IMG/VR virus record: IMGVR_UViG_2529292828_000009
DNA length: 64,000 nt
Origin: a virus
Lineage: Duplodnaviria; Heunggongvirae; Uroviricota; Caudoviricetes
Strand: one strand, 5' to 3'
The translations under genes and the position numbers were made by a program. This document shows, piece after piece, positions 11,976 through 46,867 of the stretch; position 1 is the stretch's first letter, and each line of letters starts with the position of its first letter. Under the pieces are notes generated by a model. That model was not told the DNA's origin, did not search any database, and saw only the letters and a list, made by a program, of their open reading frames with translations.

Positions 11976-12893
11976 TTACAGGTAGTCAGCGACAACCAGT
12001 TGCAGCTTGCCCTTCATCTCGTTGGAGACGGTGGTATTGCCATCCGCGAACAGCTCACGGTTAAGCAGTTGCTCTGCGGCTTTTTCCAGCCCGACCGGTA
12101 CAACGATATGCGTCGGCTTCAGGCCCAGCTTCTTACCGCCATCACCTTCAAAAGATCGCATCAGTTGCCAGCCCTTCCAGAGGTTATCCAGCGTCAGATC
12201 GCCTTTTACCGCGACAGCCATCTGCCAGAAGCCGTAACCGGCAGCACGGCGGGCGCTGGCACCAAACAGGAACTCGTTATCCATAAAAACGTGGTCGTCA
12301 TCGATACGGGTACGTGCGACCAGTTCCGGTTTGCGGCGCTCCTGGAAAATCAGCGGTTTGACTGCGCGGGAGCAGTCCAGCAGATAGAACGGCAGACCGC
12401 TGAAGCTGTCCTGCTCAACGATGTTGGAGGTATTAACCGCGCTGCCCGTGCCGTCCACATTCGGATATACCGGATGCTCCTTGTCGAAGAAGTTCTGACC
12501 GTCATAGCACGGCTGGGTAAAGCCATCTTTCAGAAGTTTAAAAATCAGCTCATCCGGCTGAACTGCCGCAGAACGGCCCATCTCCTGAAAAATCGGCGCA
12601 TAAATACCCAGATTGTCATCCTCGAAGTCATCACGGGAAATACCCACGGTGCCTTCAAACGTTTTATTGGCGATGGAGTAGCCATGCGCTTCCATTTGCT
12701 GAATGGTTCGCTTACCCACCCATTCTTTCAGGGTCGGGAATTTACCCAGCCAGCCATAGGTATTACTGCGGGTGGAAGAGTTCACCACCATTGCAATTTT
12801 GCTGTACTGCGACGGGGCGTCTTCAAGACCGCCCTGAAAATCCTTACGCCAGGAGGTCATCAGGGCTTTAATGGATGCCGGGGGGACAATCAT
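11976..12893 (-). CDS. T: Major head subunit (Mu T/gp34-like)
   Basis: 305 aa ORF downstream of protease/scaffold gene. Confidence 0.85.
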   Translation of the reverse strand: MIVPPASIKALMTSWRKDFQGGLEDAPSQYSKIAMVVNSSTRSNTYGWLGKFPTLKEWVGKRTIQQMEAHGYSIANKTFEGTVGISRDDFEDDNLGIYAPIFQEMGRSAAVQPDELIFKLLKDGFTQPCYDGQNFFDKEHPVYPNVDGTGSAVNTSNIVEQDSFSGLPFYLLDCSRAVKPLIFQERRKPELVARTRIDDDHVFMDNEFLFGASARRAAGYGFWQMAVAVKGDLTLDNLWKGWQLMRSFEGDGGKKLGLKPTHIVVPVGLEKAAEQLLNRELFADGNTTVSNEMKGKLQLVVADYL

Positions 12894-13975
12894 TTTTCTT
12901 GTTCCTGTTTCATTTTCAGATACTCAGCCTCTGTAATGCCGAGCGCCTTCACTGCTGCCTGTTCATCAGCAGACAGCACCGCCACCGCCGTTTTTTCCTG
13001 CGACGGGATTTTCGCTGTGGTGGTCTGCATGGCAGATAACGCAGCGATAGGCTGTTTTTTCTCAAGCTGTGCCGACAGTGCCGCCACGCCAATCTGACCG
13101 CCAAGCTGTTCCAGATAGGTACGTTCGCTTTTGAAAATGCGGCCTTCCTGTTCCGCCTTGTCCAGAACGGCGCTCAGGCTGGCTGTGGCGCTTTGTGCAG
13201 TCGCCTGTGCCAGTTCATCACGCAGGGCGTTGTAGCTTTCCACCGGGACGTATTTCGTCAGGTCAACGGCGGCTTTCTGTGCCTTTTCCAGTTCGGCAGA
13301 CAACGCCGCCACTTTTCCGGCATCTGTTTCGAGCGCATCAAGCGCACTCAGGGCCGCGCTGGCCTGTTCATCGGTGATGTCTGCATTTTCGGGGACCGTC
13401 ACCCCAAGACGCGCAAGCAGCTTGCGCAGCGTTTCATTCATGGGTTTGTTCTCCTGTTGAAGGATGTCGGGAAGGTCTGCCGCCAGTGCGGTCAGCTTTT
13501 TCATGCCGGTGGCACCGGGGTCATTGGTCAGCGCAGCAAGGCGGATTTGCAGCACCGCACCGGTGGCGGTGTCATACGGAAAAACCGCAGAGAGATAACC
13601 AAATTCGCCGTCATCGATGCGCTGCTGTGCCGCCGCCGTCCAGCGTGGGTGGATAAATAATCCTTCACCTTCACGCCACTGCATTTCATCGGCGTTAAAC
13701 CAGCCAGCCGCGACGAGTTGTTCCGGGGGTAATCCTTTGTCCTTACGTAGCTGGTTATGCTCGTAATCAATCAGCACGTCCTGGTTGAGCGCGCGAACGC
13801 CTTCAACCAGACGCCCGGCAATCTCACCGTCGATGAACCACCCCTGACCACCTGTCACATCAAACGGACGACCATCACGGGCGCTGAAATGACCGGCAGG
13901 CAATAGCTGGCACCAGCCGTCATCGTCAATGGACAGCGCACTCAGTGCGGCAATGCCAATCGCGTGTTTTTTCAT
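12890..13975 (-). CDS. I: Head maturation protease/scaffold (Mu I/gp32-like)
   Basis: 361 aa ORF with Ala/Glu/Leu-rich coiled-coil C-terminal half. Confidence 0.8.
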   Translation of the reverse strand: MKKHAIGIAALSALSIDDDGWCQLLPAGHFSARDGRPFDVTGGQGWFIDGEIAGRLVEGVRALNQDVLIDYEHNQLRKDKGLPPEQLVAAGWFNADEMQWREGEGLFIHPRWTAAAQQRIDDGEFGYLSAVFPYDTATGAVLQIRLAALTNDPGATGMKKLTALAADLPDILQQENKPMNETLRKLLARLGVTVPENADITDEQASAALSALDALETDAGKVAALSAELEKAQKAAVDLTKYVPVESYNALRDELAQATAQSATASLSAVLDKAEQEGRIFKSERTYLEQLGGQIGVAALSAQLEKKQPIAALSAMQTTTAKIPSQEKTAVAVLSADEQAAVKALGITEAEYLKMKQEQEK

Positions 13976-14171
13976 GTCCTGCTGCTCATCATGGTTTGTG
14001 AGCAGTCAGTTTGCGGGAGGTGCGGGAAAATCTGGGGTTATGCTATTTGAGTACTGGAGAAAGAAAGTGGAAGGAAGATAAAACGGGATTCATACACCGT
14101 TAAATACCGGTTTAAAAATCCCGTGGCGCGTTTTAAAAAATCTGTGCGGCTGATTTTATGTCTGATTCCGT
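13976..14171. promoter_or_regulatory. G-I intergenic region; candidate location of the Mu central strong gyrase site
   Basis: Unusually long non-coding gap in an otherwise tightly packed late operon, near the middle of the Mu genome; assignment from literature position only. Confidence 0.35.
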
Positions 14172-14642
14172 TTATTTCCTCAGAGCGGCGCTGACGCGTT
14201 TTCTGATGGCATCAAAAATTTCCTGTTCCCCGGTCTTATCCAGCCCCATATAAGGACGCGCAGGAACGCCTGCCGGGCGGGGTGCCATATCGGGTGTACC
14301 GCCCCACTGATGAATGGCAGCATAAATTTTTGGCGAACCAATCAGGGCATAATCCTGTCCATAATCAGTGGTAATGCTGCGTGCCAGATCGCCATGCAGG
14401 GTAAGGATACTGCCCGGAACAAAACCATGATCCTGACGCCATGCCTGCCACGAATCGCTCCACGCTTCCCAGCCTTTCCCTGTATCCGGGTCTGCCTGCC
14501 GTTCAAATGCCTGTTCCGTGGATGACAGCAGCGCCGCAGCCATCACACGGGGAATGACGCGGTCACGTGTGACGGTTCCCAGTTCATCCAGCGCAAGCTG
14601 AATACGTCGCACATCCACGGCAACGTTCATATCAAGACTCAC
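14172..14642 (-). CDS. G: Virion morphogenesis protein (Mu G/gp31-like)
   Basis: 156 aa ORF downstream of F. Confidence 0.75.
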   Translation of the reverse strand: MSLDMNVAVDVRRIQLALDELGTVTRDRVIPRVMAAALLSSTEQAFERQADPDTGKGWEAWSDSWQAWRQDHGFVPGSILTLHGDLARSITTDYGQDYALIGSPKIYAAIHQWGGTPDMAPRPAGVPARPYMGLDKTGEQEIFDAIRKRVSAALRK

Positions 14643-15994
14643 TTATTCACCTCCACATGCCCCTCCAGTATGTCAATCATCCCGTCAGCAATCGCGGCTT
14701 CAAGCGACTGTGCAGATACGCGGCTGATACTGACCAGCACATCCGCCCGGTCATTCTGTTTGCTGACAGCCTGCGATGTTCTGACCACAACTTTTGCCGT
14801 GCCGTCGCGGGTTGCCACAACATACAGCAACTGGTGGTTCTCCCTGTCCCACAATACCGCCTGTGGTTTTGCCATCAGCGACGGCAGACGCTGTAAATCC
14901 TCCGGTTTCAGGGCGGCATCAGCAGTGGTCGCCAGACTTTTCCCGTTCATCACAAGCAGACGGGCTGGCATATTCCCGGTGCGCTGATATACGGCCTCCG
15001 CCACGGATCCCGTCATAAAACCCAGCGCACGGACCTCATGTCCGGCCCGGCGTGATTTCGCCAGACGTTTAAGCCAGAGGGAAAAAGCAAGCTGACGCTC
15101 CCGGCTGTTATTCAGCGTCTGAACAACCTGCTCACGCAGCTGCGCGTCACGAACTTCCACCAGTTTTCGAATCAGTGCCTGATCCGTACCAAATGCCGCC
15201 GAACCGGGGTTATATGACCAGCCCACATCTGGCGTCATTTTTACCCGACCGTTGTCAAACGTGGTTGACGATGTGCGGAAAATCTCTCCGGTGCTTTCAT
15301 CCGTACCGGCATCCACTTCGCGGGTATTCATGAATGACGCACCATAACTGATCTGTAGCCCCAGTTCTTTCATGCGGGCCGCAGACACCGCCCGGACGCG
15401 ACAGCGGCAGTTCCAGCCATTGGGCGGGGAATGCGTCTGCCAGAAAATGTCATCATACCGGAAAACCATATTGTGCAGCCGCGCATGTTCCGGGCGTGTT
15501 CTGCCATCCATAACGGCAACGTACTGCCAGTACGGGTACAAATCGGCGGTATTCATCATCTGCGCATAACGTCCTGCCCCATACGCCGTACGGGTATTGA
15601 CGTTATAAATGGTTGCCAGACGACGCGGACTGCCCAGCTCGATTACCTTTGCGTTTCCGTCTGCATCCACGATGATTTGTTTTCCCCACCATCCGAGTTT
15701 TTGCAGCCGGGGGGCCAGTGTGCGGGTAAATTCCTCACGGGTGATGCCTTCACTGACAGCCCGCTCCACTTCCTCACGGATTGTGGTCAGGACATCCATC
15801 CGGGTGGCTTTGGCAACGGTAAAGGCGCGGGCGTGCGCGTCTGCCAGTTGTTCGTACCAGTTCCAGGTGATGTTGTAGCCTTTGGCGCGGAAATACGCGA
15901 CAGCCTCCTTTGGCGGGAGGCGTGCGGCATACGCCAGATCAATGGTCTGCTGCGGCATCCAGACGCCCCCATATATCGGCAACAAAAATGGCAC
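14639..15994 (-). CDS. F: Head morphogenesis protein (Mu F/gp30-like)
   Basis: 451 aa ORF downstream of portal; true start probably internal. Confidence 0.8.
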   Translation of the reverse strand: MPFLLPIYGGVWMPQQTIDLAYAARLPPKEAVAYFRAKGYNITWNWYEQLADAHARAFTVAKATRMDVLTTIREEVERAVSEGITREEFTRTLAPRLQKLGWWGKQIIVDADGNAKVIELGSPRRLATIYNVNTRTAYGAGRYAQMMNTADLYPYWQYVAVMDGRTRPEHARLHNMVFRYDDIFWQTHSPPNGWNCRCRVRAVSAARMKELGLQISYGASFMNTREVDAGTDESTGEIFRTSSTTFDNGRVKMTPDVGWSYNPGSAAFGTDQALIRKLVEVRDAQLREQVVQTLNNSRERQLAFSLWLKRLAKSRRAGHEVRALGFMTGSVAEAVYQRTGNMPARLLVMNGKSLATTADAALKPEDLQRLPSLMAKPQAVLWDRENHQLLYVVATRDGTAKVVVRTSQAVSKQNDRADVLVSISRVSAQSLEAAIADGMIDILEGHVEVNK

Positions 15995-17477
15995 GGGTCA
16001 GCATGTCGATAAGTTCTGCATCATCCATCTGCGGATATAATGAAGCGGCTTTGTTCATGGCGGCTTCCGGGCCATCTTTCAGCACAGAAAAAATGACGGG
16101 TTTCAGCAGGGGATCAACCGAACGCTGCCAGTCTTCCGGTGAAACGCCCATCCGGTCGATATCATCCTCCTGCGGGATATCATCAGCGGATAATGCGGCT
16201 TCTTTCTGCGGACCGTTATCCATGACGACCGGTTGAGCAGTAAACACGGCTTCATCACCGACCGGCTGTGGAATATGGAGTTTTTCCTGTATCCATGAGA
16301 CCGGAATACGCATTCCCGCCGCCAGTTTCGGAATGGCGTCAGACAGTGCCGTAATATCACCCGCTTCACTGGTATCAAATACAATGCCCGGCAGGCGGTT
16401 AATATCAATGGTGCTGCCACTGTTCAGTGCCAGCAGGGGATAAATCAGATCACGGTTAATACTGCGGGCAAGCTGGCCCACATCCGCGTTACGGATTTCC
16501 CGGCGAACCTCATCATGCACTTCACCCAGCGACCGCGCGCCTTTATCGCCAGCCTCTGTGGTCAGGGTGCCGCCCAGAATAGCTTTTGAAATCGCTTTTT
16601 CTGCCCAGCCAATCATCGCCATAAAAGGGTCTGACTGACCATCTGCGGCGCTCTGAAAATCCAGCGTCATCCCCATCGGAATAATGCCACCGGCACGTCG
16701 CCCGATATCCATCACGGCCTGCATCAGCGTGGCTTTCTCGCGGTTCGTTGAGCCGGTCGGATATTTACCGACGCGCATGGGGAGTCCGTAAATTTCCAGG
16801 AACTCTGCAAAATCACGCACGGAATAGTTTTTAAAAATAAAAGGCCAGATAAGCGTGCGCACAAGACCATTGGTGCCGACATACCCGGTGCGGGATTTGG
16901 CCCGGTGCATAAACCAGCCGAACGGTTGCAGCTCCAGCCCGTGATAAGACGCATCACGCAGGCGTAATTCGTTCAGATTGTCGGGGTTCGCGCAGAACAG
17001 CGCCGGATCGCGATGATGCAGCGCCACCGGCACGCGCATTTTCCCAAGCCACCCCCATTCAATCTCCTGCATGGAATAGCCCTTGAGAATGGCATCACCG
17101 GCATCAAACAGGGCATCTTCAAACCACGCCGCATCATGCAGATATTCATTCAGTATGTCAGCGTCTTTTTTCTCCTGTGTGCTGGCATCACGTGCCGGAG
17201 CGATGCGCCATTCCAGCGCCTGAATGGCAAGGCGGCGTTTGCTCAGTTCGGAAAAAAGGTGGGTGTCCTTTTCTTCCATATCAAAGGCCAGGTCAGCCTG
17301 TGCTGTCAGATCACCGCGTTCGGCATCACGCAGCATCTGCGCGGCCCGGTTCGGCGTCACACCACTGGAAGGATGCTCCTGCGTACGCTTCATGACCATT
17401 GCCAGCTCATCGCTGCGGGTCTGCATTTCATCGTCAAAATCAAACGGCTGCCCGGAAATATCCAGAATACGGCCCAT
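15939..17477 (-). CDS. Portal protein (Mu gp29/H-like)
   Basis: 512 aa ORF immediately downstream of large terminase. Confidence 0.85.
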   Translation of the reverse strand: MGRILDISGQPFDFDDEMQTRSDELAMVMKRTQEHPSSGVTPNRAAQMLRDAERGDLTAQADLAFDMEEKDTHLFSELSKRRLAIQALEWRIAPARDASTQEKKDADILNEYLHDAAWFEDALFDAGDAILKGYSMQEIEWGWLGKMRVPVALHHRDPALFCANPDNLNELRLRDASYHGLELQPFGWFMHRAKSRTGYVGTNGLVRTLIWPFIFKNYSVRDFAEFLEIYGLPMRVGKYPTGSTNREKATLMQAVMDIGRRAGGIIPMGMTLDFQSAADGQSDPFMAMIGWAEKAISKAILGGTLTTEAGDKGARSLGEVHDEVRREIRNADVGQLARSINRDLIYPLLALNSGSTIDINRLPGIVFDTSEAGDITALSDAIPKLAAGMRIPVSWIQEKLHIPQPVGDEAVFTAQPVVMDNGPQKEAALSADDIPQEDDIDRMGVSPEDWQRSVDPLLKPVIFSVLKDGPEAAMNKAASLYPQMDDAELIDMLTRAIFVADIWGRLDAAADH

Positions 17478-19219
17478 TACCAGCCCCCTCGTTCAAACTG
17501 GTGATAATCATCAAAATCATCGTTATCAACACCATCACCACGGTGGCGTGGTGGCAGCGCCTGTATGCTGTCCTCGTCGATAACAAAACCATTCATATAA
17601 GACGCCCTGACAGCCATACAGAGCGCCACGGCAAAGTCGCCATGTCGTCGGCCTTTACCGCCTTCGTCTTTTGTGCGCCCCTTATCAATCTGCGGAATAC
17701 CTTTGTCCACCTTGATGTGGAGCAGGTCATCAAGTGTGGTCTGGTGCCGGGCAATCGTGATGTTCTGCGCTTCAAACTCGCCTTTCAGTTTGGGCATCCA
17801 CTCCTGATACCAGGATGCGGTCAGATTCACACAGTCGATCATCTCCGGGCCATAAATCAGACGGGCGGCTTCTGCCAGATAACCGCCGTTACCGGTGGCA
17901 TCAAATGCAGCGCCGGTAAAACGGGGCAAACGGGACAGAATGAATAAAAGGATTTGTCGCTGCTGGTCATAGGTCACATTACGCAGCTCCACGCGGAAAC
18001 ATTCGCGTTTGCGTAAGTCAGGCGTGATGGCAAGCGGCACAAACACCGTCAGGTCGCCACGGCGTGCAAAGTCTTCGCCCAGTACGTGTTTATTGAGCGG
18101 CGACAGCGCATCGAGCAACGGGAGCAGCTCCTGTTCACACCAGTCCTGAACGATGCCGTGGCGCATTTGTGGTGTCAGCGATTCAAAATCGTCCGGGGCT
18201 TCAAAACGCAGAATCGGGATATCCCGCGCTGGCGTCATGGCGGCTTCAATCAACACGCGTGACAGATAAGCGCCCCCGGATTTTTTGGGAATGCAGCCGT
18301 ATTCCTCGTCGGCACTCTCTTTATTCGGCGCATTCCGGTACAGGCCATCACGCCAGGCTTTTTCCGCTTCCGGCGACCACGGCTGATTCGTGACGTAACA
18401 GATACGTCGGTATAACCCGTCAGCGATGGCATCATCCAGCGTGATGCGGTGAACGCTGTAATCCTTGCGCCCCTCGCGCGCATCCTGAATGTACTGATTA
18501 AACAGATTATCGACGCCGTTATGTGTCGATATGATGCGCACGCTGGCACCCCACATGTTTAGTGCAAAGGCCGCTTTCAGCAGTTCGTCCAGGGCTTCAT
18601 GGAATGCCGCCTCATCAATCACCACGTCCCCCTGCAATCCACGCAGGTTAGACGGGCGGCTTGACAGAGCCTGTATCTTAAATCCGCTGTTCGGAAAGCG
18701 GATCATGTAGGTGAGGATTTCTTCTTTTTTGTCGCTGTCCCAGAAGGTCTGCTCCCAGACGTCAGCCTTTGCCAGTTGGTTAAAGGCACGGGCAAACAGG
18801 GCACAGGCGGCGATGTATTCCAGCGCCATTTCCTGACGGGAACCCACATAAAAGACGTTGCGACCACCGCGACGCTTCGGCTTTGCGGCCGTCATGACAT
18901 TGCGGCCCGCTTCAGCCCATGTCAGACCGGTACGACGGGATTTTTCAGCGATGCAAATCTGGCTTTCATCCTCAAACCAGCGCCGCTGATAGCCCAGAAA
19001 AACCGGTTCATTGCGGGGCTGTGCTTCCCCGATATCGGTCACGATATTCACGCCGAGCAGTCCGGCTTCCTCACGCAGGTTGATTTTGCGGGGGGCATGA
19101 AGGGCTTTAAGGTTGTTTTCTCTGGTGTTCATAACCCTCTCATGCCTTACCCAGCAGTACATCACGGATACGCTGCTCCAGCTCTTCGCTGATGCCATCC
19201 TGCCCGCGCAGTTCTTCAC
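17477..19219 (-). CDS. Terminase large subunit (Mu gp28-like); true start probably at internal Met30
   Basis: 580 aa ORF preceding portal; N-terminus overlaps small terminase gene in another frame. Confidence 0.85.
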   Translation of the reverse strand: MKNCAGRMASAKSWSSVSVMYCWVRHERVMNTRENNLKALHAPRKINLREEAGLLGVNIVTDIGEAQPRNEPVFLGYQRRWFEDESQICIAEKSRRTGLTWAEAGRNVMTAAKPKRRGGRNVFYVGSRQEMALEYIAACALFARAFNQLAKADVWEQTFWDSDKKEEILTYMIRFPNSGFKIQALSSRPSNLRGLQGDVVIDEAAFHEALDELLKAAFALNMWGASVRIISTHNGVDNLFNQYIQDAREGRKDYSVHRITLDDAIADGLYRRICYVTNQPWSPEAEKAWRDGLYRNAPNKESADEEYGCIPKKSGGAYLSRVLIEAAMTPARDIPILRFEAPDDFESLTPQMRHGIVQDWCEQELLPLLDALSPLNKHVLGEDFARRGDLTVFVPLAITPDLRKRECFRVELRNVTYDQQRQILLFILSRLPRFTGAAFDATGNGGYLAEAARLIYGPEMIDCVNLTASWYQEWMPKLKGEFEAQNITIARHQTTLDDLLHIKVDKGIPQIDKGRTKDEGGKGRRHGDFAVALCMAVRASYMNGFVIDEDSIQALPPRHRGDGVDNDDFDDYHQFERGGW

Positions 19220-19730
19220 TCACGGCGTTTGCCGCTTCTTCTGCGAATGCCTGGCGGATTTCTTTCTCGCGCCGGTGGCTGGACATTGCCGTGGATTCCA
19301 GACGCTGTGCCGCCAGCATGGCATTTTTCAGCAGGTCAATATCCACGTCAGATTCCGGGGTTTCGATTTGCCGCATCATGGCCTTAAAAAGCTGGCTGCG
19401 GGCCATTTCCAGAATCAGCTTTGTGGTTTCTCCCATTGGCTTGTCGCCAAGTTCTGCGGTCAGTGCTGACGTCATTTCACGCATCTGTCGCAGGTTATGG
19501 CCTACCTGCTCGACGTTCGTCGCGTAACGGTTCAGACCGGAACGGGAGAGTTTCATCTCATCCGGCAGGCCAGCGTCTTCAATCAGTACGTTAATTTCTT
19601 CCAGAATGCGGGCCTGTGGGATCGCTTTATCACGCAGCATTTCATGCAGCGTTTTACGTACGTTTTCCGGCAGTAAATCCACTTTTGAAGCCCGGCCCCG
19701 TGTTTTCCTGTCCATCACGCCTCCTGTCAT
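19140..19730 (-). CDS. Terminase small subunit (Mu gp27-like)
   Basis: 196 aa ORF directly upstream of large terminase. Confidence 0.7.
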   Translation of the reverse strand: MTGGVMDRKTRGRASKVDLLPENVRKTLHEMLRDKAIPQARILEEINVLIEDAGLPDEMKLSRSGLNRYATNVEQVGHNLRQMREMTSALTAELGDKPMGETTKLILEMARSQLFKAMMRQIETPESDVDIDLLKNAMLAAQRLESTAMSSHRREKEIRQAFAEEAANAVSEELRGQDGISEELEQRIRDVLLGKA

Positions 19731-20017
19731 GCACGGGGACGAGGACGCTTGACACCGGCAACGCGGGCACGACCTTCTGCCACATCCTGACCTCGGGAGG
19801 TCAGCGTTACGACATAAAAGCCGCGCAGGTTTTCCACGGTGACCAGTTGCTGCTCTGCCAGCCAGTCAATCTGGCCGCGAACCACATCGCGGGAAACGTT
19901 GTGTCCGTATGCATCCAGACAGTCCTGAAGGATGGATTCGTTTGCTTCGTTATTGCAGTCCATCAGGGAACGCAGGATGACCAGACGACGGTCTTCGGTC
20001 AGAATATCGTTAATCAT
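19727..20017 (-). CDS. Mu gp26-like hypothetical protein
   Basis: 96 aa ORF with 4-nt overlaps to neighbours. Confidence 0.45.
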   Translation of the reverse strand: MINDILTEDRRLVILRSLMDCNNEANESILQDCLDAYGHNVSRDVVRGQIDWLAEQQLVTVENLRGFYVVTLTSRGQDVAEGRARVAGVKRPRPRA

Positions 20018-20331
20018 GAATTACTCCGGTTTACTGCGTTTTCAAGCAGCAGCTCCAGTTGATGGGAAAATGACTGCACCCGCTGGGACAGCACCCGGAT
20101 ATCGCCGGACAGCTCTGCAATTCGCAGGCGCATTTCGTGTACATCTTCTGTGCCAGGGATGCTGGCGTAGCGGGTTTCCATTTCGGTCATCCGGTTTTCA
20201 AGACGCTCCACACGCTCAGTGCTGGCAAAACTACGACGCATTGCCCAGACGGCCCCACCGGCCACAACAGGCAACAGGTAAGGCCATAACGCTAAAACTG
20301 AAATCAAATCCATTATTCTGCTCCACGGCAC
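20014..20331 (-). CDS. Mu gp25-like small membrane protein (possible lysis-associated)
   Basis: 105 aa ORF, N-terminal hydrophobic segment then coiled-coil-like region. Confidence 0.45.
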   Translation of the reverse strand: MPWSRIMDLISVLALWPYLLPVVAGGAVWAMRRSFASTERVERLENRMTEMETRYASIPGTEDVHEMRLRIAELSGDIRVLSQRVQSFSHQLELLLENAVNRSNS

Positions 20332-20507
20332 CAGTGGCAGTAGTTCGCCATCGGCTGCTGTCTCAGCACATCAGGCCGCAGCTCACGACCGCAACCGGCA
20401 CACAATACAGGCGGGTCATACGCCGCCGGGCGGGGAATATCACGGGTATCCCCCTGCCAGAGTTCAGCGAGCAGCAGCGCCACCGCCCGGTTCTGGTCTT
20501 CGTTCAT
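20313..20507 (-). CDS. Small Cys-rich (zinc-ribbon-like) protein
   Basis: 64 aa ORF with CxxC...CxxC pattern. Confidence 0.4.
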   Translation of the reverse strand: MNEDQNRAVALLLAELWQGDTRDIPRPAAYDPPVLCAGCGRELRPDVLRQQPMANYCHWCRGAE

Positions 20508-20805
20508 AAATTTCTTTCCTTCGGGTCTCCTGTTCCCGGACTGATGCCTTGTCGCGGTTGCACTGCCCGAGCGCCATCAACAGGTCAGCATTCCAGAGAA
20601 GGGATGCTCCCCACGTCAGGGGCTGTGGCATGGGCGGAACGGGCGTTGCTTCCGTCAGTTCTGCATCAGTTTCGGGCAGGATCACCACCGATGGCACGGG
20701 TGCGTTTTTCGAGTTCCCGCAACCTGTCAGCAGCAACGGCAGGCACAGGACGAGTGCTGCAATTGTCACCGGTAATGGCGGGTGTAATTTTTTGTTTTGC
20801 ATCAT
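20464..20805 (-). CDS. Putative o-spanin lipoprotein (start at internal Met of ORF 20464..21012)
   Basis: Lipoprotein signal with lipobox LLTGC, Pro-rich body; overlaps i-spanin gene in a different frame. Confidence 0.5.
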   Translation of the reverse strand: MMQNKKLHPPLPVTIAALVLCLPLLLTGCGNSKNAPVPSVVILPETDAELTEATPVPPMPQPLTWGASLLWNADLLMALGQCNRDKASVREQETRRKEIYERRPEPGGGAAAR

Positions 20806-21052
20806 GATGTTCTGTCTCATCTGCCAGCCGCGCGGCACGATTTGCGGCACGGATAGCGGAAAATACCTGCATCGTCTGTTCCTGACCGTGTAACAACCAT
20901 TCAGCCGTGTTGCGGGCCTGTTGCTCCGTCTGTAATTCACGGCGCAGCGTCTGGTTATCGTGGCGGGTGCTGTCCAGCCTGTGCCACAACACCCCGGACA
21001 GAACGGCGGCAAACACGGCTGCCAGCAGTAAACTTTTACTGGCGAAGGTCAT
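20666..21052 (-). CDS. Putative i-spanin (Rz-like)
   Basis: 128 aa, N-terminal TM helix then coiled-coil-like region, directly downstream of endolysin. Confidence 0.55.
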   Translation of the reverse strand: MTFASKSLLLAAVFAAVLSGVLWHRLDSTRHDNQTLRRELQTEQQARNTAEWLLHGQEQTMQVFSAIRAANRAARLADETEHHDAKQKITPAITGDNCSTRPVPAVAADRLRELEKRTRAIGGDPARN

Positions 21053-21554
21053 CCGCCCCCCTGATATTCCAGATAGCCATTTCCACTTCGCGACGGTTCA
21101 TCAGTCCTTTCCATTTATGGCCTGCGGCAAACACCCAGCGGGCCATCTGGTCACGCGCTCCGGCGTAATCACCGGCATTGAGTTTTTTCAGCAGCGTTGA
21201 TTTACTGAATGCGGTAACACCGGTGTTGAAAATAAACGTTGCCAGCGCCGTTTTCTGATATGGCGTCAGCGGCACCCTGACAAGACGATCGATTGCCGCA
21301 TAAACCGGTTTTAAATCACTGTCGAGGAGAGCCATACACTCCGCATGGCTGTAACGGCGCATTTCGATATCCGGCCCGGTATGCCCCACACAGACCGAAA
21401 GCACACCGCCAATATCGCGGTAAGGCATATAAGCGATATTTTCCAGGTGGATCAGAGACTGACGGGTCATTTCCTGATAACCACCCACACCGCCACCGGC
21501 AATCGTTACAGCCAGCAGTGTGGCTTTCAGTTTTTTTGGTATCCCCGCCATCAT
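21036..21554 (-). CDS. lys: SAR-type endolysin (T4-lysozyme-like)
   Basis: N-terminal weakly hydrophobic Gly/Ala-rich anchor followed by E...D...T catalytic triad pattern; Mu lys position. Confidence 0.8.
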   Translation of the reverse strand: MMAGIPKKLKATLLAVTIAGGGVGGYQEMTRQSLIHLENIAYMPYRDIGGVLSVCVGHTGPDIEMRRYSHAECMALLDSDLKPVYAAIDRLVRVPLTPYQKTALATFIFNTGVTAFSKSTLLKKLNAGDYAGARDQMARWVFAAGHKWKGLMNRREVEMAIWNIRGADDLRQ

Positions 21555-21645
21555 GCTTCCCTGAAAAAATGCTCTGATGGCAGTCTAAAAAATCAGGTGG
21601 CAGGTGCGGGATTATGGTGACAGGAAATAACCGGCAGGATGCCGG

Positions 21646-22068
21646 TTATTTTGGGCTTTCAGGTGAGAACAGATCAGGCTGATGACGTCGTGTATGCAGC
21701 TTTCTCTGGCGGGCAATAATCTGGTAGATCTGCGGCTGGGACAGGCGGGACTGGCGACGCAGTTCTTCCATGTTACGACCATTAAACTGGCAGTAAAGCA
21801 AATCGTCGCGTAACGCGGTCAGGATCGTATCGCCGCAGGGGATGTAAAACTGCCGTCCACCCAGAAAACAGGACAGGGCAACGGCCTGTTTACGGGCAAG
21901 TTCACGGGGATTGCTGACGTTCTGGCGTTTCAGTTCGTTTTCCAGAACATCAATCAGATCAACCACCGAACGGGGCCAGCGTGATTCCAGTTCCGGGGCC
22001 GGGATGTTATCAATATGTCCGATTAACTGGCGAATTGCCGGATCGTGTTCAAATAAATCATGCTGCAT
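21646..22068 (-). CDS. C: Late transcription activator (Mu C, Mor/C family)
   Basis: 140 aa ORF paralogous to the Mor-like ORF at 23047..23436; lies just upstream of the lysis/late genes. Confidence 0.75.
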   Translation of the reverse strand: MQHDLFEHDPAIRQLIGHIDNIPAPELESRWPRSVVDLIDVLENELKRQNVSNPRELARKQAVALSCFLGGRQFYIPCGDTILTALRDDLLYCQFNGRNMEELRRQSRLSQPQIYQIIARQRKLHTRRHQPDLFSPESPK

Positions 22069-22180
22069 ATTTTCCCCCGGTTAACAGACAGAAAGATACA
22101 CCACGGCACTGATGGTTATCAGAACCACAAGGGCAATCACTTTTATCGCACTCATCAGCGTGGACGGCCCGAAACATTCA

Positions 22181-31591: not shown

Positions 31592-34228
31592 TTAACGACA
31601 TTCAGCTGATAGCTGGGTTAATAACTGCTGCTGACTCTCTGGTGGCAGTTGATAATTGGCGACACAGTGAGCATTTTCCTCTTCTCCCCATTTCACCTGA
31701 ACTTTTCCCGCTAAAGGCATTCCGCTGAGGTAAACCTGACCATTATCCGCAACAATGCCGCTACTCTGGCTACTCTCTGATGTCACCATCGCCCCAAACG
31801 GCAGCGGCTTATTATTGTGGGTTAGCGTCATGAGCAGTTTTATCCCAACGCGCGCTTTAAACTCTGCTCGCACGATCGCCCCACGAGTGGGAACAACGTT
31901 AGCGACCGCGTTATCTAAATCGACGTTATCAGCCAGGGTATTGGTATCCAGCGCCACTCTATTTTCCCGATATTCAGTGGCATAAGGCAGCACGGCATAA
32001 CCACGCCAGTCGGTACGCACCCCCGTCTGGTTTTCGACTTTTGCATCTTTTGCGCCAGGCGCTTTAACAAGCACCACTGTTTCGTTTAACGGCTGCCCCA
32101 GCGTTACGCCATTGGCATGAGCCAATACCCCACCGCTGACTCCGTAATAGAGCTGCTTAATATCATCGCTATGGCTGTAACCGATATTGGCATTGCCGTA
32201 ACCACCGCGATAATTCAGCGTGGCGTAGCCTGTACTTCCGCTATTACCATCACCTCCCCCGGCATAGCCGGTTTGCACGCTATAGCTGAGGTTGTTGTCT
32301 TCCAGCAACGTACCGTATACACCAGCCAGATTGGTCATCCGACCGTTGAGATCGTGTGACATGCTGTAGCTGGCACTGGCATGTCGCCACTGAGATTTAC
32401 TGTCAGAACGCAGCCAGTGGCTGAAAGGAATATTGACGTTAAGCGCTAACATCTGATCCCGTCCTTTTTGCCAGGCGTTTTTCGTCAGGCTATAGCTGAG
32501 CGTCCAGTTGATATCTTCGAATGCAGTATTTAAACCAGCCTGGAATTGCTCATCGACATTACTCGTTCCCCAATAAGTTTGATGGCTACCACTCAAATAC
32601 AGTGTTGATGTGCGCCCGAGTTGCTGAGTAACGGTGAGCTGTAATTTCCCGCGTTTGTTATAAGCGAGGTTGTAATAGTCGGTGAATTTCGGCTTAACCT
32701 GAATAACTCCGTCCTGTGTTTCGATGTTGTAGCCATTCATTCGACTGTATGTTGTATCAGCGAAATTAAAATATCCGCTGGTCGAATAACGGTAACCCAC
32801 TAACTGAATATTCGTGCCTGACTCATTGAGCGATTTGTTATAGAGAAAACGCACCGATTGTCCGTCATGCTGACTGTCATCGGGAAGTGTGGAATTAGCC
32901 TGCGTCATATCCACAGACAGAGCGCCCAATGCCCCCATGTTTTTCCCGATACCGAAATTAAAAGCACGATAACGATCCGCCAGTTGCGTTCCACCATATA
33001 TTGTCCAGCCAGCCGGAAGGCCGTGGAGTAATGTACTCTGGAAAAAGCGGGGTTTTTCCTGCTGCGCATTTCCACTACGGTATTCTCCTGCCGTAATGGA
33101 ATAACGAGTATGCCCTTCACGTTGCAAAAGCGGGACTGACGAATAGGGTACGGTAAAAATCTGCGTGCTGCCGTCAGCCTCTTTGATCGTTACCTGCAAG
33201 TCACCACTATTACCTGCGGCATAGATATCGTTGATGGTAAAAGGCCCCGGTGGCACCGTACTATTATAAATGTCATACCCATTTTGTTTAATAGTGACCT
33301 GTGCAGTACCACGAGCAATACCGTGGATCACCGGGGCAAATCCTCTTTGGCTATCGGGTAACATATTGTCATCTGAGGCCAATTGTGCGCCGCGAAAGTT
33401 AATACCATCGAAAATATCGCCCTGAGTATAACCATCACCCAGCGTCAGCCGGGAACGTAACGGTATTATGTCTCGCTCAAGCCAGGTATTGATATGCTGC
33501 CATTTATTTTTGCTACCTGATGATCTGTCGCTACTGTTATAACTCCAGCTGGTATTGTCGCGTAAACGCCACGCACCAATATTTAACCCACTCTGTAGGT
33601 TTAAATATGCATAATGGTTGTTACCCCCAATCCGATTCTGTACACTATTTCCGCTGAAATTATAATTGAGCAATCCGGCATTAATACCGGGATCCCATAA
33701 CTCAGGAGGAATATAACCACGCGCGCGATTACTCATAAATGCCTGAGGGATCGTCAGGTTGAGTCGCTGCTGACCAACATCTAAATGCGCAGTAGCGTCA
33801 TGGATCATGGAGGTTAATGGCACGCAGGCATCATCCGCCAGCAGATTCATACCGGAGACAGAAGCCGTATTCAGCCCCATACTGGCAAGTTGCGCGCGTG
33901 TCAGGCAGGGAACAATCCCTTGTTCGCTGTCGCCCGTATTAAATGTGACATCACGCGTTGCCATATAACCATTATTCAAATAGATATCGACACGATACGT
34001 CCCTGGCGGTAATTCTTGCCCATTTTCAAAACGCGATAAATCAGCCACAGCCTGGGGATCATCCGCTAAAAAGCGCGGATTAAAATAGAGTTCGGCAGAT
34101 GACAAAGGTGTCTGTGCGGCAAAAGCACAGGCGACAAAGAGCCGGACAAAAAAACCAGCCAAACGATGCTTACGAATATGCAAGCATTGTGTGTTTCGCT
34201 GGTAAAGTCTTAAATTCAGATATGACAT
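31592..34228 (-). CDS. fimD: Type 1 fimbrial outer-membrane usher FimD
   Basis: 878 aa ORF, fim operon order. Confidence 0.95.
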   Translation of the reverse strand: MSYLNLRLYQRNTQCLHIRKHRLAGFFVRLFVACAFAAQTPLSSAELYFNPRFLADDPQAVADLSRFENGQELPPGTYRVDIYLNNGYMATRDVTFNTGDSEQGIVPCLTRAQLASMGLNTASVSGMNLLADDACVPLTSMIHDATAHLDVGQQRLNLTIPQAFMSNRARGYIPPELWDPGINAGLLNYNFSGNSVQNRIGGNNHYAYLNLQSGLNIGAWRLRDNTSWSYNSSDRSSGSKNKWQHINTWLERDIIPLRSRLTLGDGYTQGDIFDGINFRGAQLASDDNMLPDSQRGFAPVIHGIARGTAQVTIKQNGYDIYNSTVPPGPFTINDIYAAGNSGDLQVTIKEADGSTQIFTVPYSSVPLLQREGHTRYSITAGEYRSGNAQQEKPRFFQSTLLHGLPAGWTIYGGTQLADRYRAFNFGIGKNMGALGALSVDMTQANSTLPDDSQHDGQSVRFLYNKSLNESGTNIQLVGYRYSTSGYFNFADTTYSRMNGYNIETQDGVIQVKPKFTDYYNLAYNKRGKLQLTVTQQLGRTSTLYLSGSHQTYWGTSNVDEQFQAGLNTAFEDINWTLSYSLTKNAWQKGRDQMLALNVNIPFSHWLRSDSKSQWRHASASYSMSHDLNGRMTNLAGVYGTLLEDNNLSYSVQTGYAGGGDGNSGSTGYATLNYRGGYGNANIGYSHSDDIKQLYYGVSGGVLAHANGVTLGQPLNETVVLVKAPGAKDAKVENQTGVRTDWRGYAVLPYATEYRENRVALDTNTLADNVDLDNAVANVVPTRGAIVRAEFKARVGIKLLMTLTHNNKPLPFGAMVTSESSQSSGIVADNGQVYLSGMPLAGKVQVKWGEEENAHCVANYQLPPESQQQLLTQLSAECR

Positions 34229-34294
34229 TATTCCTCCGGTTTAAAATCACCCGGCAGTCAATTCTTTTTATTCAGGCGAAAAATTCCCCCTGCG

Positions 34295-35020
34295 TTATTC
34301 CATTACGCCCGTCATTTTGGGGGTAAGTGCGCCATAATCATTTATTGTTCGGTAAGTAATATTGCTTCCCGCATCAGAAGGCAATTTAACCGTGCTTTCG
34401 CCCATTGGAGGCACCAAGGCATTTTCAAGAACCCGGGCTCCGGCATTCAACTCTGTTACCGTCAGGTAATAGGGTGTCGGGTTAATCAGCGTCAGAGAAT
34501 TCGCGCTACGACGAAATCTTAATTTTTCTGCGGCCTGATCGGGTGGCAACGCTAATTTAGCCGGACGATAGTACAGTTTAATGCGGCTGATAATTGCGAG
34601 CTGTAGCGTATTCTCAGTCAATTTTGATTTATCCATTGACGGAATCGCTTTAACGTTCATCCAGAATAAACTTTCCCGGTCCTGTGGCAATTGGTTATTT
34701 GTTGCATCAAGAATACGCAAGGTATTCTCTTTTTTTCCCTTCATCGCAAACAGAGGAGGCGTCACGATAAAACGACCATCCTTTACACCATCGGCATTTT
34801 CCACCCATGATTGAATTAAATAGGTACTATTTTCATCATTATTTGTCACGGCAAGTTGCACTTGTTTTTGCCCTGCCGGATAAATTACGCGAGTCGCACC
34901 TAAGGCCACTCCCGCTTCAGCGCGTCCGGCAACCATCATTGCCATGAACATCAGGATACCTGCCAGCAAGCAGAATGTTATTTCCTGCGATTTCCTTACA
35001 TTGACGTTTTTATTACTCAC
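34295..35020 (-). CDS. fimC: Type 1 fimbrial periplasmic chaperone FimC
   Basis: 241 aa ORF with signal peptide. Confidence 0.95.
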   Translation of the reverse strand: MSNKNVNVRKSQEITFCLLAGILMFMAMMVAGRAEAGVALGATRVIYPAGQKQVQLAVTNNDENSTYLIQSWVENADGVKDGRFIVTPPLFAMKGKKENTLRILDATNNQLPQDRESLFWMNVKAIPSMDKSKLTENTLQLAIISRIKLYYRPAKLALPPDQAAEKLRFRRSANSLTLINPTPYYLTVTELNAGARVLENALVPPMGESTVKLPSDAGSNITYRTINDYGALTPKMTGVME

Positions 35021-35056
35021 TGTCCTGTTCCTGTTATCACATTATCTGCTGAACAA

Positions 35057-35596
35057 TTACTGATAGGTTAAAGAGAACCAGGCCTGGGCATTGGCGATGC
35101 CGCCAGTAACCCGACGCCCGGTAGCACGATATTTGGCGATGAAATGTAGCGAAGTAGAGCCTGAGTAAAGCCGTTTCCAGTTTGCTGGAGGACGATTAAT
35201 CGGTACGAGGTTTCCTTCATCATCAAACAACGCTACGCCAATATTGGTGGCTATCCCTGGCCCCTCTCCCACGGAAAGCACATCCGGATTTTTACCATCC
35301 GCGACACCGTGAAACGCCACACCCACACGTTCACTCACCACCGTGCTACATTCCCGTAAATGAATAACAAAAGGCACCGGTGCGCTATCTTCCCCTACCG
35401 CATGAAACCGGTTACTGCTGATTTGCCCCATATTGACCGTCATTTGTTTATCACCGGCTTCAATCCGGCAAGTTTCCGCAATAATGACGCCCTGAAATTG
35501 CATATTTCCGCCGGGCAGCGTGGTATTCCATTTATTTCCGGCCAGAGCAAACATTGGCAGCAACGACGCTAATAGAAATAATCTCTTCCTTTTCAT
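35057..35596 (-). CDS. fimI: Fimbrin-like protein FimI (start at internal Met MKRKRLFLL)
   Basis: Signal peptide then pilin-like domain; position between fimA and fimC. Confidence 0.85.
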
Positions 35597-35660
35597 CGTT
35601 ATTTTTATCGCACAAGGGTGGGCATCCCTGCCCGTAATGACGTCCCTGAACCTGGGTAGG

Positions 35661-36209
35661 TTATTGATACTGAACCTTGAAGGTCGCATCCGCATTAGCA
35701 GCACCCGGGGTTGCGGCACCGGTTGCAAAATAACGCGCCTGGAACGGAATGGTGTTGGTTCCGTTATTCAGGGTTGTTTCTGAACTAAATGTCGCACCGT
35801 CCAGCGCCAGCGCAGCACCCGTTCTGTCCAGGATCTGCACACCAACGTTTGTTGCGCTACCCGCAGCTGAACTCTGCAGAGCCAGAACGTTGGTATGACC
35901 CGCATCAATCGCCGTACCTAAAAAGGCAACAGCGGCTTTAGATGCAACATTGGTATCGCAATCATTCAGCTGAATGTTAAAACCGACAGCAGAACTGGTC
36001 GCTCCTTCCTGTGCCAGCGATGCGGTACGAACCTGTCCTAACTGAACGGTTTGATCAACAGAGCCTGCATCAACTGCGCAAGCGGCGTTAACAACTTCCC
36101 CTTTAAAGTGAACGGTCCCACCATTTACCGTCGTGGCAGCGGCCAGAGCCGCTGTAGAACTGAGGGACAGAGCCGACAGAACAACGATTGCCAGAGTTTT
36201 AATTTTCAT
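35661..36209 (-). CDS. fimA: Type 1 fimbrial major subunit FimA
   Basis: 182 aa ORF, signal peptide, Ala/Gly/Thr-rich pilin. Confidence 0.95.
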
Positions 36210-36328: not shown

Positions 36329-36642
36329 TTGGGGCCATTTTGACTCATAGAGGAAAGCATCGCGGACAAACTTTTTCAGTTTATTTGTTGGCTTAATATT
36401 CTATTGTTATCTTTATTTATAGATGTTTATATTGCATGAGGTGGTTTTTGGAGAGAAGAATGAGGAAGATGCGTCGAGCCACAGAAACGTTAGCTTTACA
36501 TATAGCGGAGGTGATGTGAAATTAATTTATAAGAGAAATAATTTACATATCAAACATTTAGATGCTTTTTGTCGTTTTTTAATATTTTTATGCTTGAGAA
36601 AAAATACGTAACTTATTTATGATATGGACAGTTTGGCCCCAA
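36329..36642. promoter_or_regulatory. fimS: fimS invertible switch (314 bp between 9-bp inverted repeats TTGGGGCCA/TGGCCCCAA)
   Basis: Inverted repeats at ~36329-36337 and ~36634-36642; sigma70-like TTGAGA-N17-TATGAT at ~36595-36623 reads on plus strand, away from fimA. Confidence 0.85.
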
Positions 36643-36689: not shown

Positions 36690-37286
36690 TCAAACCTCTT
36701 CTCTTTTTAATTTTTCGTTTATGAGATTATTTCTTTCCCATAATCCGGCAAAACGAGCAGCATTACTGGCGGTATAACGCACAGTATGGCGAATATTTCG
36801 ATGCCCGAGATAATCCTGAATTAAACGAGTATCTGCACCACGCTCCGCCAGTTCATAACCGCAAGCATGCCTTAACATATGAGGATGAGTCTGCGTTACG
36901 GTTCCAGCTTCAATACCGGCATCGCGAATAATGCGATAGGCCTGCTGGCGAGAAAGCCGACTCCCGCGGCGAGAAATAAATATAGCGTCAGTCCGGTCAG
37001 CGCCTTTCCAGTTAGCACGTTCCTGGGTCCATCGTTCCACGGCTTCACGCTCATCAAAACGTAACGGGTGAACGGTAGAAAATCCGTTCTTCAGTCGGCG
37101 AATATTTATTCTACCTTCATTAAGGTCAAGGTCCTGATAATGCAGATCAAGCAGTTCACTAATACGCATCCCATGCCGATATGCCAACAGAATAAGACAA
37201 TAATCTCTGGCTCCCGTTGCCCCGTAACAAACCGCCTGCATCATGGCCTGAACTTCTTTACCGGTAAGATAACGACGTTTACTCAC
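36690..37286 (-). CDS. fimE: Tyrosine recombinase FimE
   Basis: 198 aa ORF ending next to the switch. Confidence 0.95.
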   Translation of the reverse strand: MSKRRYLTGKEVQAMMQAVCYGATGARDYCLILLAYRHGMRISELLDLHYQDLDLNEGRINIRRLKNGFSTVHPLRFDEREAVERWTQERANWKGADRTDAIFISRRGSRLSRQQAYRIIRDAGIEAGTVTQTHPHMLRHACGYELAERGADTRLIQDYLGHRNIRHTVRYTASNAARFAGLWERNNLINEKLKREEV

Positions 37287-37763: not shown

Positions 37764-38366
37764 CTATAAAACAGCGTGACGCTGTCGTCCTCTGGCTCTA
37801 TCCCAGATGCCGTAAAAACGCCCTGCATTGCTGGCGGTATACCAGACAGTATGACGAATATTGCGATGCCCAAGATAATCCTGGATAAGTCGCGTATCTA
37901 TTCCCATATTCGCCAAAGCAAAACCACACGAATGGCGTAACATGTGCGGATGAATCTCCAGTGACAACCCGGCATTACCACCGGAAGTCGAGATAATATG
38001 GTAAAACTGTTGCCGAGAAAGCGGATTTCCCTTACGAGATAAAAATACCCACTCGCTCTCAGCATGCGGGTACGAAGTACGGATACTCAACCAGTTTTTT
38101 AAAGCCTGAACTTCTTTGTTCAATAGCGGATGCGTTGTTGAAAAGCCTTTTTTTAATCGATGGATATATATACACTTTGCCTTAAGATCAATATCCGAAA
38201 TCCTCAATCGACAAATTTCACTCGCCCGGAAACCATGAATAAAACAAAGCAAAGTCAGACAATAATTACGTGCTGCATGAGGCCCGGTATTTGCTGCTTT
38301 AAGGAGTGATTCGATTTCACTATGGGTCAGGAAGTTCCTTTTTTTGTTATCAGCCTTATTCTTCAT
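37764..38366 (-). CDS. fimB: Tyrosine recombinase FimB (start at internal Met MKNKADNKKRNF)
   Basis: Paralog of FimE upstream of fimE. Confidence 0.9.
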   Translation of the reverse strand: MKNKADNKKRNFLTHSEIESLLKAANTGPHAARNYCLTLLCFIHGFRASEICRLRISDIDLKAKCIYIHRLKKGFSTTHPLLNKEVQALKNWLSIRTSYPHAESEWVFLSRKGNPLSRQQFYHIISTSGGNAGLSLEIHPHMLRHSCGFALANMGIDTRLIQDYLGHRNIRHTVWYTASNAGRFYGIWDRARGRQRHAVL

Positions 38367-42709: not shown

Positions 42710-42716
42710 GCGTTCA

Positions 42717-43367: not shown

Positions 43368-43446
43368 AGAGAATGTCCTTATACGTTCTCAGAACAAGCA
43401 GCAAAAAAACAAATGAGATCAAAGTAATATATCTTCACTTGCAGGC

Positions 43447-43689
43447 TTGAACAGCAGAAAATTTGCGAGCATGATCGCAATTATTTCACTGCCAGGGATA
43501 TCAATGGCTTCCAGTAAATCGCTACAGCAGGCAATTGCCAATATAAAAATCTGGCATAAGGGTGAACAGCGCGCACCGCATAAACCATTGTTATTGCTAT
43601 ACGTATTAGCGGGATACCTGAATGGACATCCACGCCTTTTCGATTATTGTAGTGGAACAGTCTACGAGGATGCAGTTCGAAGTGAGTAA
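43447..43689 (+). CDS. Hypothetical small protein, possibly a gene fragment
   Basis: 80 aa ORF, no strong motif. Confidence 0.25.
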   Translation: MNSRKFASMIAIISLPGISMASSKSLQQAIANIKIWHKGEQRAPHKPLLLLYVLAGYLNGHPRLFDYCSGTVYEDAVRSE

Positions 43690-46844: not shown

Positions 46845-46867
46845 TCCTGACATGACGCAGTTCTCCC

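What the first reader, a model, noticed from the sequence alone, without database searches (positions are those of the whole stretch)
36329..36642. fimS switch appears to be in the phase-OFF orientation
The 314-bp invertible element is intact between its 9-bp inverted repeats, but the only strong sigma70-like promoter inside it (TTGAGA-N17-TATGAT) lies next to the fimE-proximal repeat and points away from fimA. If this is the fimA promoter, the sequenced molecule is phase OFF.
Basis: inference. Interest (0 to 1): 0.4.

Follow-up and report, generated by a model that had tools for sequence, protein, structure and literature searches.

The report
fimS fimbrial switch, phase OFF
This is the well-known invertible promoter switch for E. 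coli type 1 fimbriae, assembled in its usual OFF orientation, so the finding is correct but ordinary; separately, a Mu-like prophage has broken the fimbrial operon downstream.

Summary
A 314-bp element (36329-36642) is bounded by perfect 9-bp inverted repeats (TTGGGGCCA) and lies between fimE and fimA, both on the minus strand. Its best sigma70-like promoter, TTGAGA-N18-TATGAT (36594-36623, plus strand; the spacer is 18, not 17), sits 10 bp from the fimE-proximal repeat and points at fimE, away from fimA.

The OFF call is supported by evidence that does not rely on the promoter argument:
- In-silico versions of two published orientation assays give the published OFF fragments: SnaBI 440+161, BstUI 539+188.
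- A footprint mapped in the ON orientation fits only the flipped element.
- The window is colinear with O157:H7 Sakai, whose switch is locked OFF, and with the MG1655 reference.

Among complete E. coli genomes, 4460 share this orientation and 250 the opposite one. Eleven of those 250 are 100% identical to the in-silico flipped window. FimB and FimE are identical to the K-12 proteins and the 16-bp O157 deletion is absent, so the switch is probably free to invert rather than locked.

One preprint labels this orientation ON. It is internally inconsistent and is outweighed.

A Mu-like prophage (1-31471) interrupts fimF after codon 37. Adhesive fimbriae should therefore be lacking in either phase.

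Already known; low interest.

The parts
36329..36642 (.). fimS, the 314-bp invertible element, here in the phase-OFF orientation
   Evidence: Bounded by perfect 9-bp inverted repeats. It is 99% identical and colinear with MG1655. The in-silico SnaBI and BstUI assays give the published OFF patterns. It is colinear with locked-OFF O157:H7 Sakai.
36329..36337 (+). fimA-proximal 9-bp inverted repeat (IRR), TTGGGGCCA
36634..36642 (-). fimE-proximal 9-bp inverted repeat (IRL), TTGGGGCCA on the - strand
36594..36623 (+). fimA promoter: -35 TTGAGA (36594-36599), 18-nt spacer, -10 TATGAT (36618-36623). It points toward fimE in this orientation. The expected start is an A at about 36628-36630, just inside the repeat.
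   Evidence: The sequence is identical to MG1655. The literature places the fim operon promoter inside fimS. The start-site position is inferred from hexamer spacing.
36605..36610 (.). SnaBI site (TACGTA) inside the promoter spacer, used in the published orientation assay
36361..36364 (.). BstUI site (CGCG) near the promoter-distal end, used in the Dorman-laboratory assay. A HinfI site (GACTC) lies at 36342-36346.
36543..36571 (+). IHF site II / GrpQ footprint region (TTACATATCAAACATTTAGATGCTTTTTG), one SNP from the CFT073 sequence
   Evidence: The IHF consensus match was read from the sequence, using the WATCAANNNNTTR consensus from my own knowledge.
36690..37286 (-). fimE, a tyrosine recombinase that switches ON to OFF
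   Evidence: ORF. The protein is 100% identical to K-12 FimE. Annotated as fimE in matching genomes.
37764..38366 (-). fimB, a bidirectional tyrosine recombinase
   Evidence: ORF. The protein is 100% identical to K-12 FimB. Annotation.
35661..36209 (-). fimA, the major fimbrial subunit. It has no recognisable promoter of its own in this orientation.
   Evidence: One substitution (T135A) against K-12. No promoter-like hit on the - strand between 36209 and 36329.
31592..35596 (-). fimI (35057-35596), fimC (34295-35020) and fimD (31592-34228), all intact
   Evidence: Coordinates were transferred from the strain D6 annotation.
31472..31582 (-). The first 37 codons of fimF, truncated by the prophage insertion
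   Evidence: Sequence read. Colinearity with other E. coli genomes ends here.
1..31471 (-). Mu-like prophage. The left end TGTATTGATTCACTTGAAG lies at 31471. It carries the c repressor (30543-31133, +), MuA (28153-30153, -) and MuB (27176-28114, -). The right end lies beyond the window start.
   Evidence: Identity to phage Mu is 93-98% over Mu coordinates 1 to about 31987, with one unaligned gap at window 22204-22998.

Best explanation
This is the canonical E. coli fimS phase switch, assembled in the OFF orientation.

Shown here:
- The 314-bp element lies between fimE and fimA and is bounded by 9-bp inverted repeats.
- Its promoter sits at the fimE-proximal end and reads toward the 3' end of fimE.
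- As a result, fimAICD has no promoter-like site feeding it.

From the literature on this family:
- FimB inverts the element in both directions at low frequency.
- FimE inverts it from ON to OFF efficiently.
- IHF and Lrp bend the DNA inside the element.
- In ordinary cultures FimE dominates, so most cells are OFF, and a consensus assembly usually shows OFF.

Inferred:
- The switch in this strain is still free to invert. The repeats, fimB, fimE and the internal sites are intact, and the same allele is found in the ON state in other genomes.
- The assembled OFF state is the majority state of the sequenced culture.
- Flipping to ON would not restore adhesive fimbriae, because a Mu-like prophage cuts fimF after codon 37 and separates fimG and fimH from the promoter.
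For: Anatomy.

Homology: 99% colinear identity with the MG1655 fimE-fimA interval.

Published assays reproduced in silico:
- SnaBI gives 440+161, the published OFF pattern.
- BstUI gives 539+188, against the published OFF pattern of 539+187.
- The flipped element gives the ON patterns to within 1-2 bp.

Other orientation evidence:
- The GrpQ footprint coordinates fit only the flipped element.
- The window is colinear with locked-OFF O157:H7 Sakai and lacks its 16-bp deletion.
- The Fis probe geometry fits the window orientation.

Survey of complete E. coli genomes:
- 4460 genomes match the window orientation over at least 80% of an 801-bp query.
- 250 match the flipped version, 11 of them at 100% identity.
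- Both states occur within K-12: NC_000913.3 is OFF, while DH1 and some MG1655 assemblies match the flipped (ON) version.
- The likely sister isolates Z22-6 (H24) and Z22-7 (H34) differ in state.

Switch machinery: FimB and FimE are 100% identical to the K-12 proteins. The literature states that FimE predominance leaves most cells non-piliated.

Mu insertion.
Against: - One preprint (10.1101/840991) labels an 884-bp primer 1+2 product 'phase ON'. In silico, that exact 884-bp product forms in the window orientation. However, the preprint names its OFF primer pair inconsistently (2+3 in one place, 1+3 in another). Its 394-bp OFF size does not match the 412 bp predicted. It offers no phenotype tied to the labels.
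- I could not read the primary start-site mapping of the fimA promoter (Olsen and Klemm 1994, cited from memory). The identity of the hexamers therefore rests on secondary statements that the promoter lies in fimS, plus the assay geometry.
- The promoter scan alone is not above chance.
- No read data are available, so a mixed population cannot be assessed.
Confidence: 0.95

Rival explanations
1. The orientation in the window is actually phase ON, and the TTGAGA-N18-TATGAT site is not the fimA promoter.
For: Preprint 10.1101/840991 calls the 884-bp product of its primers 1+2 'phase ON'. That product forms in the window orientation. The promoter-like hit is not statistically exceptional.
Against: Two independent published restriction assays give the OFF pattern. 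The footprint coordinates for ON fit only the flipped element. Locked-OFF O157:H7 Sakai is colinear with the window. No promoter-like site faces fimA from the fimA-proximal part of the element or from the 119-bp spacer. The preprint is internally inconsistent on primer pairs and fragment size.
Confidence: 0.02
2. The switch is mutationally locked OFF, as in O157:H7 or in fimB mutants, rather than caught in the OFF phase of a working switch.
For: Only the OFF state is seen in the window. Inversion in this strain cannot be observed from a single consensus sequence.
Against: Both 9-bp repeats are perfect. The 16-bp O157 deletion is absent. FimB and FimE are 100% identical to K-12. Eleven other genomes are 100% identical over 801 bp to the flipped version of this exact allele, so this sequence inverts in nature. 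Trans-acting factors (IHF, Lrp) lie outside the window and were not checked.
Confidence: 0.05
3. The OFF state is only the assembler's consensus of a mixed ON/OFF population, so 'the sequenced molecule is OFF' overstates what is known.
For: fimS switches stochastically and cultures are mixtures. Likely sister isolates and K-12 derivatives differ in their assembled state.
Against: This reading does not conflict with the OFF call for the assembled sequence. It only limits its meaning. It cannot be tested without reads.
Confidence: 0.6

Closest known systems
E. coli K-12 fimS / FimB-FimE type 1 fimbrial phase switch (Abraham et al. 1985; MG1655 b4312-b4314)
   Same: Same locus. The fimE-fimA interval is 99% identical, with identical repeats, promoter hexamers, element length (314 bp) and orientation to NC_000913.3. 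The FimB and FimE proteins are identical.
   Different: There are three SNPs inside the element, one A-run length difference and one SNP in the flanks. These variants are shared with many natural isolates. Downstream, fimF is interrupted by a Mu-like prophage, which K-12 lacks.
O157:H7 fimS with the 16-bp deletion (locked OFF)
   Same: Same orientation and colinear sequence.
   Different: The window keeps the 16 bp (AAACGACAAAAAGCAT) that O157:H7 lacks. It is therefore not locked by that mutation.
Other recombinase-driven promoter inversion switches: hyxS/FimX and ipuS/IpuA-IpuB in UPEC (both tyrosine recombinases), and Salmonella hin and phage Mu gin/G segment (serine invertases)
   Same: The same general logic: a short invertible DNA segment that switches expression (a promoter in hyxS, ipuS and hin; alternative tail-fibre genes in the Mu G segment) is flipped by a nearby site-specific recombinase (for hyxS and ipuS; the rest from my own knowledge).
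   Different: These are different loci, repeats and targets. The window element is fimS itself, not an analogue.

Membership tests
fimS type 1 fimbrial phase switch | A 314-bp element bounded by 9-bp inverted repeats (TTGGGGCCA) | tested here: met
   Repeats at 36329-36337 and 36634-36642, span 314 bp. Matches the literature description.
fimS type 1 fimbrial phase switch | Located between fimE and fimA, with fimB and fimE tyrosine recombinase genes immediately upstream | tested here: met
   The gene order fimB-fimE-fimS-fimA-fimI-fimC-fimD runs along the - strand. FimB and FimE are 100% identical to K-12.
fimS type 1 fimbrial phase switch | Carries the fim operon promoter inside the element, near one repeat | tested here: met
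   TTGAGA-N18-TATGAT lies 10 bp from a repeat and is identical to K-12. The literature states that the promoter lies within fimS. Promoter activity itself was not tested.
fimS type 1 fimbrial phase switch | The element is found in both orientations, with breakpoints at the repeats | tested here: met
   4460 genomes match the window orientation and 250 the flipped one. Eleven of the 250 are 100% identical to the in-silico flip.
fimS type 1 fimbrial phase switch | The element inverts in this particular strain or sample | not testable with these tools
   This needs raw reads or orientation PCR on the culture.
Phase-OFF state of fimS | The promoter is adjacent to IRL (fimE side) and directed away from fimA | tested here: met
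   Promoter on the + strand at 36594-36623; fimA on the - strand at 35661-36209.
Phase-OFF state of fimS | The published orientation assays give the OFF fragment sizes | tested here: met
   SnaBI 440+161 and BstUI 539+188, against published OFF patterns of 440+161 and 539+187.
Phase-OFF state of fimS | Colinear with an experimentally locked-OFF reference | tested here: met
   O157:H7 Sakai alignment, with its locked-OFF status taken from PMC6765310.
Phase-OFF state of fimS | No fimA transcription or fimbriation | not testable with these tools
   This needs expression data. The Mu insertion in fimF would confound any phenotype test.

The most novel reading that the evidence does not exclude
In this strain a Mu-like prophage separates fimF (beyond codon 37), fimG and fimH from the switch. 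fimS therefore controls only fimA-fimI-fimC-fimD (plus the FimR2 small RNA region downstream of fimA).

The least ordinary reading is that the OFF state here is selected for rather than merely the default. Turning ON would make major subunit, chaperone and usher without the adhesin. Alternatively, Mu may have landed in the operon because it was silent. No complete E. coli genome in the collection shares this Mu-fimF junction.
Probability: 0.1. Interest if true: 0.3.

Novelty: already known. Interest (0 to 1): 0.08.

Why it matters
The fimS orientation tells you whether the sequenced culture was mostly fimbriate. That matters when interpreting adhesion, biofilm and urovirulence phenotypes, and when using an assembly as a reference for orientation assays.

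Here it is the default state. About 95% of complete E. coli assemblies with this region, including the MG1655 reference, show it. So it carries little information.

The practically useful point is a different one. The operon is broken by a Mu-like prophage in fimF, so this strain should lack mannose-sensitive adhesion whatever the switch does.

Tried and rejected
- I tried to find the primary promoter and start-site sequence in the paper library. A search for fimA plus TTGAGA returned only unrelated primer lists. Abraham et al. 1985 (PMC390624) is not held. The review PMC8777976 had no promoter detail.
- I considered the HinfI assay of PMC6765310 (ON 74/485, OFF 202/357). Its primers were not available to me, and the fragment geometry can be satisfied by two mirror-image primer placements. 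I did not use it as evidence.
- I considered the statistical significance of the 9-bp repeats and of the promoter hit. Neither is above chance on its own, so the argument rests on homology and on natural inversions.
- I considered that the preprint 10.1101/840991 might overturn the OFF call. I rejected this because of its internal inconsistencies and four concordant independent lines of evidence.
- I looked for a tRNA at the end of the P4-like island. ARAGORN found none in the window. Only about 24 nt of the tRNA-Leu 3' end is present, where colinearity with strain D6 stops.

Full report
**What is in the sequence**

Reading the minus strand, the window carries these genes:
- fimB (37764-38366)
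- fimE (36690-37286)
- a 480-bp intergenic region
- fimA (35661-36209)
- fimI, fimC and fimD (31592-35596)

Inside the intergenic region, TTGGGGCCA occurs at 36329-36337 on the plus strand. Its reverse complement occurs at 36634-36642. These are the only two copies in the window, and they bound a 314-bp element.

The pattern TTGAGA...TATGAT occurs once in the window, at 36594-36623 on the plus strand. It matches 10 of 12 consensus positions. Its -10 hexamer ends 10 bp before the fimE-proximal repeat, and it reads toward fimE. The SnaBI site TACGTA lies in its spacer, at 36605-36610.

- The spacer is 18 nt, not 17.
- Two weaker (9/12) promoter-like matches are also present.

Neither the 9-bp repeats nor the promoter hit is statistically remarkable on its own. 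Other perfect 9-nt inverted pairs occur in this AT-rich stretch. The three promoter-like hits compare with 2.4 +/- 1.8 in shuffles. The element is real because of homology and comparative evidence.

**Identity**

The fimE-fimA interval is 99% identical and fully colinear with MG1655 (NC_000913.3). It differs by three SNPs inside the element, one SNP in the fimA-side flank, and one A-run length difference in the fimE-side flank. The FimB and FimE proteins are 100% identical to K-12, and FimA differs by T135A. This is fimS, the type 1 fimbrial phase switch, as described in the literature: 314 bp, 9-bp repeats, with the promoter for the fim operon inside.

**Which orientation is it?**

I looked for tests that do not depend on guessing the promoter.

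1. *SnaBI assay.* PMC11724981 gives primers for a 601-bp product, with SnaBI fragments of 403+198 for ON and 440+161 for OFF. On the window, the primers give 601 bp and 440+161. On an in-silico flip they give 405+196.
2. *BstUI assay.* The Dorman-laboratory assay (PMC9993118) uses primers OL4 and OL20. The published patterns are OFF 539+187 and ON 433+293. The window gives 539+188 and the flip gives 434+293.
3. *GrpQ footprint.* The footprint is reported at -219 to -191 'in the phase-ON orientation'. It lies at exactly 219 to 191 nt from the fimA ATG only in the flipped element. In the window it is on the opposite strand, at 36543-36571.
4. *O157:H7 control.* O157:H7 carries a 16-bp deletion that locks the switch OFF (PMC6765310). 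The Sakai genome is colinear with the window across the whole element. The window retains those 16 bp.
[quoted passage not shown] It forms only in the window orientation.

All five agree that the window is phase OFF. The promoter logic agrees too. No promoter-like site faces fimA from the fimA-proximal part of the element or from the 119-bp spacer before fimA.

**A contradiction, and why I discount it**

The preprint 10.1101/840991 states that its primers 1+2 give an 884-bp product in phase ON. In silico, that exact 884-bp product forms in the window (and MG1655 reference) orientation.

I discount the preprint for three reasons:
- It names its OFF primer pair as '2 and 3' in one place and '1 and 3' in another.
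- Its 394-bp OFF product would be 412 bp in the flipped element.
- It ties neither label to a phenotype.

I treat this as a label swap. It is the one published statement that runs against the conclusion.

**How common is this state?**

An 801-bp query spanning the switch matched 4460 complete E. coli genomes over at least 80% of its length in the window orientation. The in-silico flipped query did so in 250 genomes. That is about 95% against 5% of the 4710 genomes that could be scored.

Eleven genomes are 100% identical to the flipped query. So this exact allele inverts in nature, precisely at the 9-bp repeats.

Both states occur within single lineages:
- Within K-12, NC_000913.3 is OFF, while DH1 and some MG1655 assemblies match the flipped (ON) query.
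- The likely sister isolates Z22-6 and Z22-7 differ in state (H24 against H34).

This fits the literature statement that FimE activity predominates, so most cells are non-piliated. OFF is the default expectation for an assembly.

**Mechanism**

*From the literature.* FimB inverts the element in both directions. FimE drives ON to OFF and cannot act on the OFF configuration. IHF and Lrp bind in and next to the element. The element also carries a Rho-dependent terminator that is connected to, or disconnected from, fimE by inversion.

*Shown here.* The cis and trans parts present in the window are intact, and the promoter is disconnected from fimA.

*Inferred.* The switch is functional and was caught in its majority state. 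A promoter transcript would start at about 36628-36630, cross the repeat, and run antisense into the 3' end of fimE.

*From memory, not verified here.* The OFF orientation is the one in which the fimE message meets the terminator (Joyce and Dorman 2002; Hinde et al. 2005). The promoter hexamers were mapped by Olsen and Klemm (1994).

**Context that changes the meaning**

Colinearity with every other complete E. coli genome stops at about window position 31465-31471, inside fimF. On the minus strand, fimF starts at 31582 and runs for 37 codons (MRNKPF...VRDNG). It then meets TGTATTGATTCACTTGAAGTACG, the canonical left end of phage Mu.

Window 1-31471 is 93-98% identical to Mu coordinates 1 to about 31987, apart from one unaligned gap at 22204-22998. 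It includes the c repressor, MuA and MuB. The right end of the prophage and fimG-fimH lie outside the window. No genome among the 5426 shares this junction.

From what I know of type 1 pilus assembly, the FimH adhesin is needed both for adhesion and for efficient usher activation. This strain should therefore lack functional type 1 fimbriae in either phase.

**Verdict**

What was found is a textbook element in its most common state. Novelty: already known. Interest is low.

Noticed in passing
window 1-31471 (junction at 31471/31472): A Mu-like prophage (93-98% identical to phage Mu, with one unaligned gap at 22204-22998) is inserted in fimF after codon 37. Its canonical left end, TGTATTGATTCAC, abuts fimF. 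The c repressor, MuA and MuB genes are intact ORFs. No complete E. coli genome in the collection shares this junction. The insertion should abolish functional type 1 fimbriae whatever the fimS state.
   Followed up: yes
window 1-21: The window begins about 21 nt inside the boundary of the Mu G segment, another invertible element (Mu coordinate about 31987; the annotated boundary is at 31966). Too little of it is present to say which orientation it is in.
   Followed up: partly
window 22204-22998 and about 24040-24052: Local blastn against reference Mu leaves a gap of about 800 bp (22204-22998). The flanking segment is only 93% identical. This suggests replaced or divergent sequence in the Mu region around genes gp14 to gp19.
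   Followed up: no
window about 41800-55808: By colinearity with strain D6 (99.99% identity), a P4-like satellite prophage follows a truncated nanS. It carries primase-helicase, Icd-like, capsid-size (sid-like), psu and ogr/delta-like genes. Its cargo is a SIR2-family protein and an ATP-binding protein, which looks like a defence hotspot. An integrase gene follows. Colinearity ends at 55808, inside the 3' end of tRNA-Leu.
   Followed up: partly
window 55809-64000: Beyond the partial tRNA-Leu site the window does not continue into ahr/yjgR as strain D6 does. It enters a second island carrying the Kiwa anti-phage genes kwaA and kwaB, a RipA-family membrane protein and an Eco57I-like restriction-modification methylase. 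The best match is 97.6% identical over 68% of the query, in strain BA22372. ARAGORN finds no intact tRNA anywhere in the window. This looks like tandem islands at the leuX site.
   Followed up: partly
window 35616-35650 (- strand): The 35-nt FimR2 small RNA sequence, annotated in MG1655 just downstream of fimA, is present and identical. If it is made from the fim operon transcript, its production would also depend on the fimS orientation.
   Followed up: no
literature: bioRxiv 10.1101/840991: The orientation labels of this preprint's three-primer PCR appear to be swapped. Its 884-bp 'ON' product forms in the OFF (MG1655 reference) orientation. Its 'OFF' product would be 412 bp, not 394 bp.
   Followed up: yes
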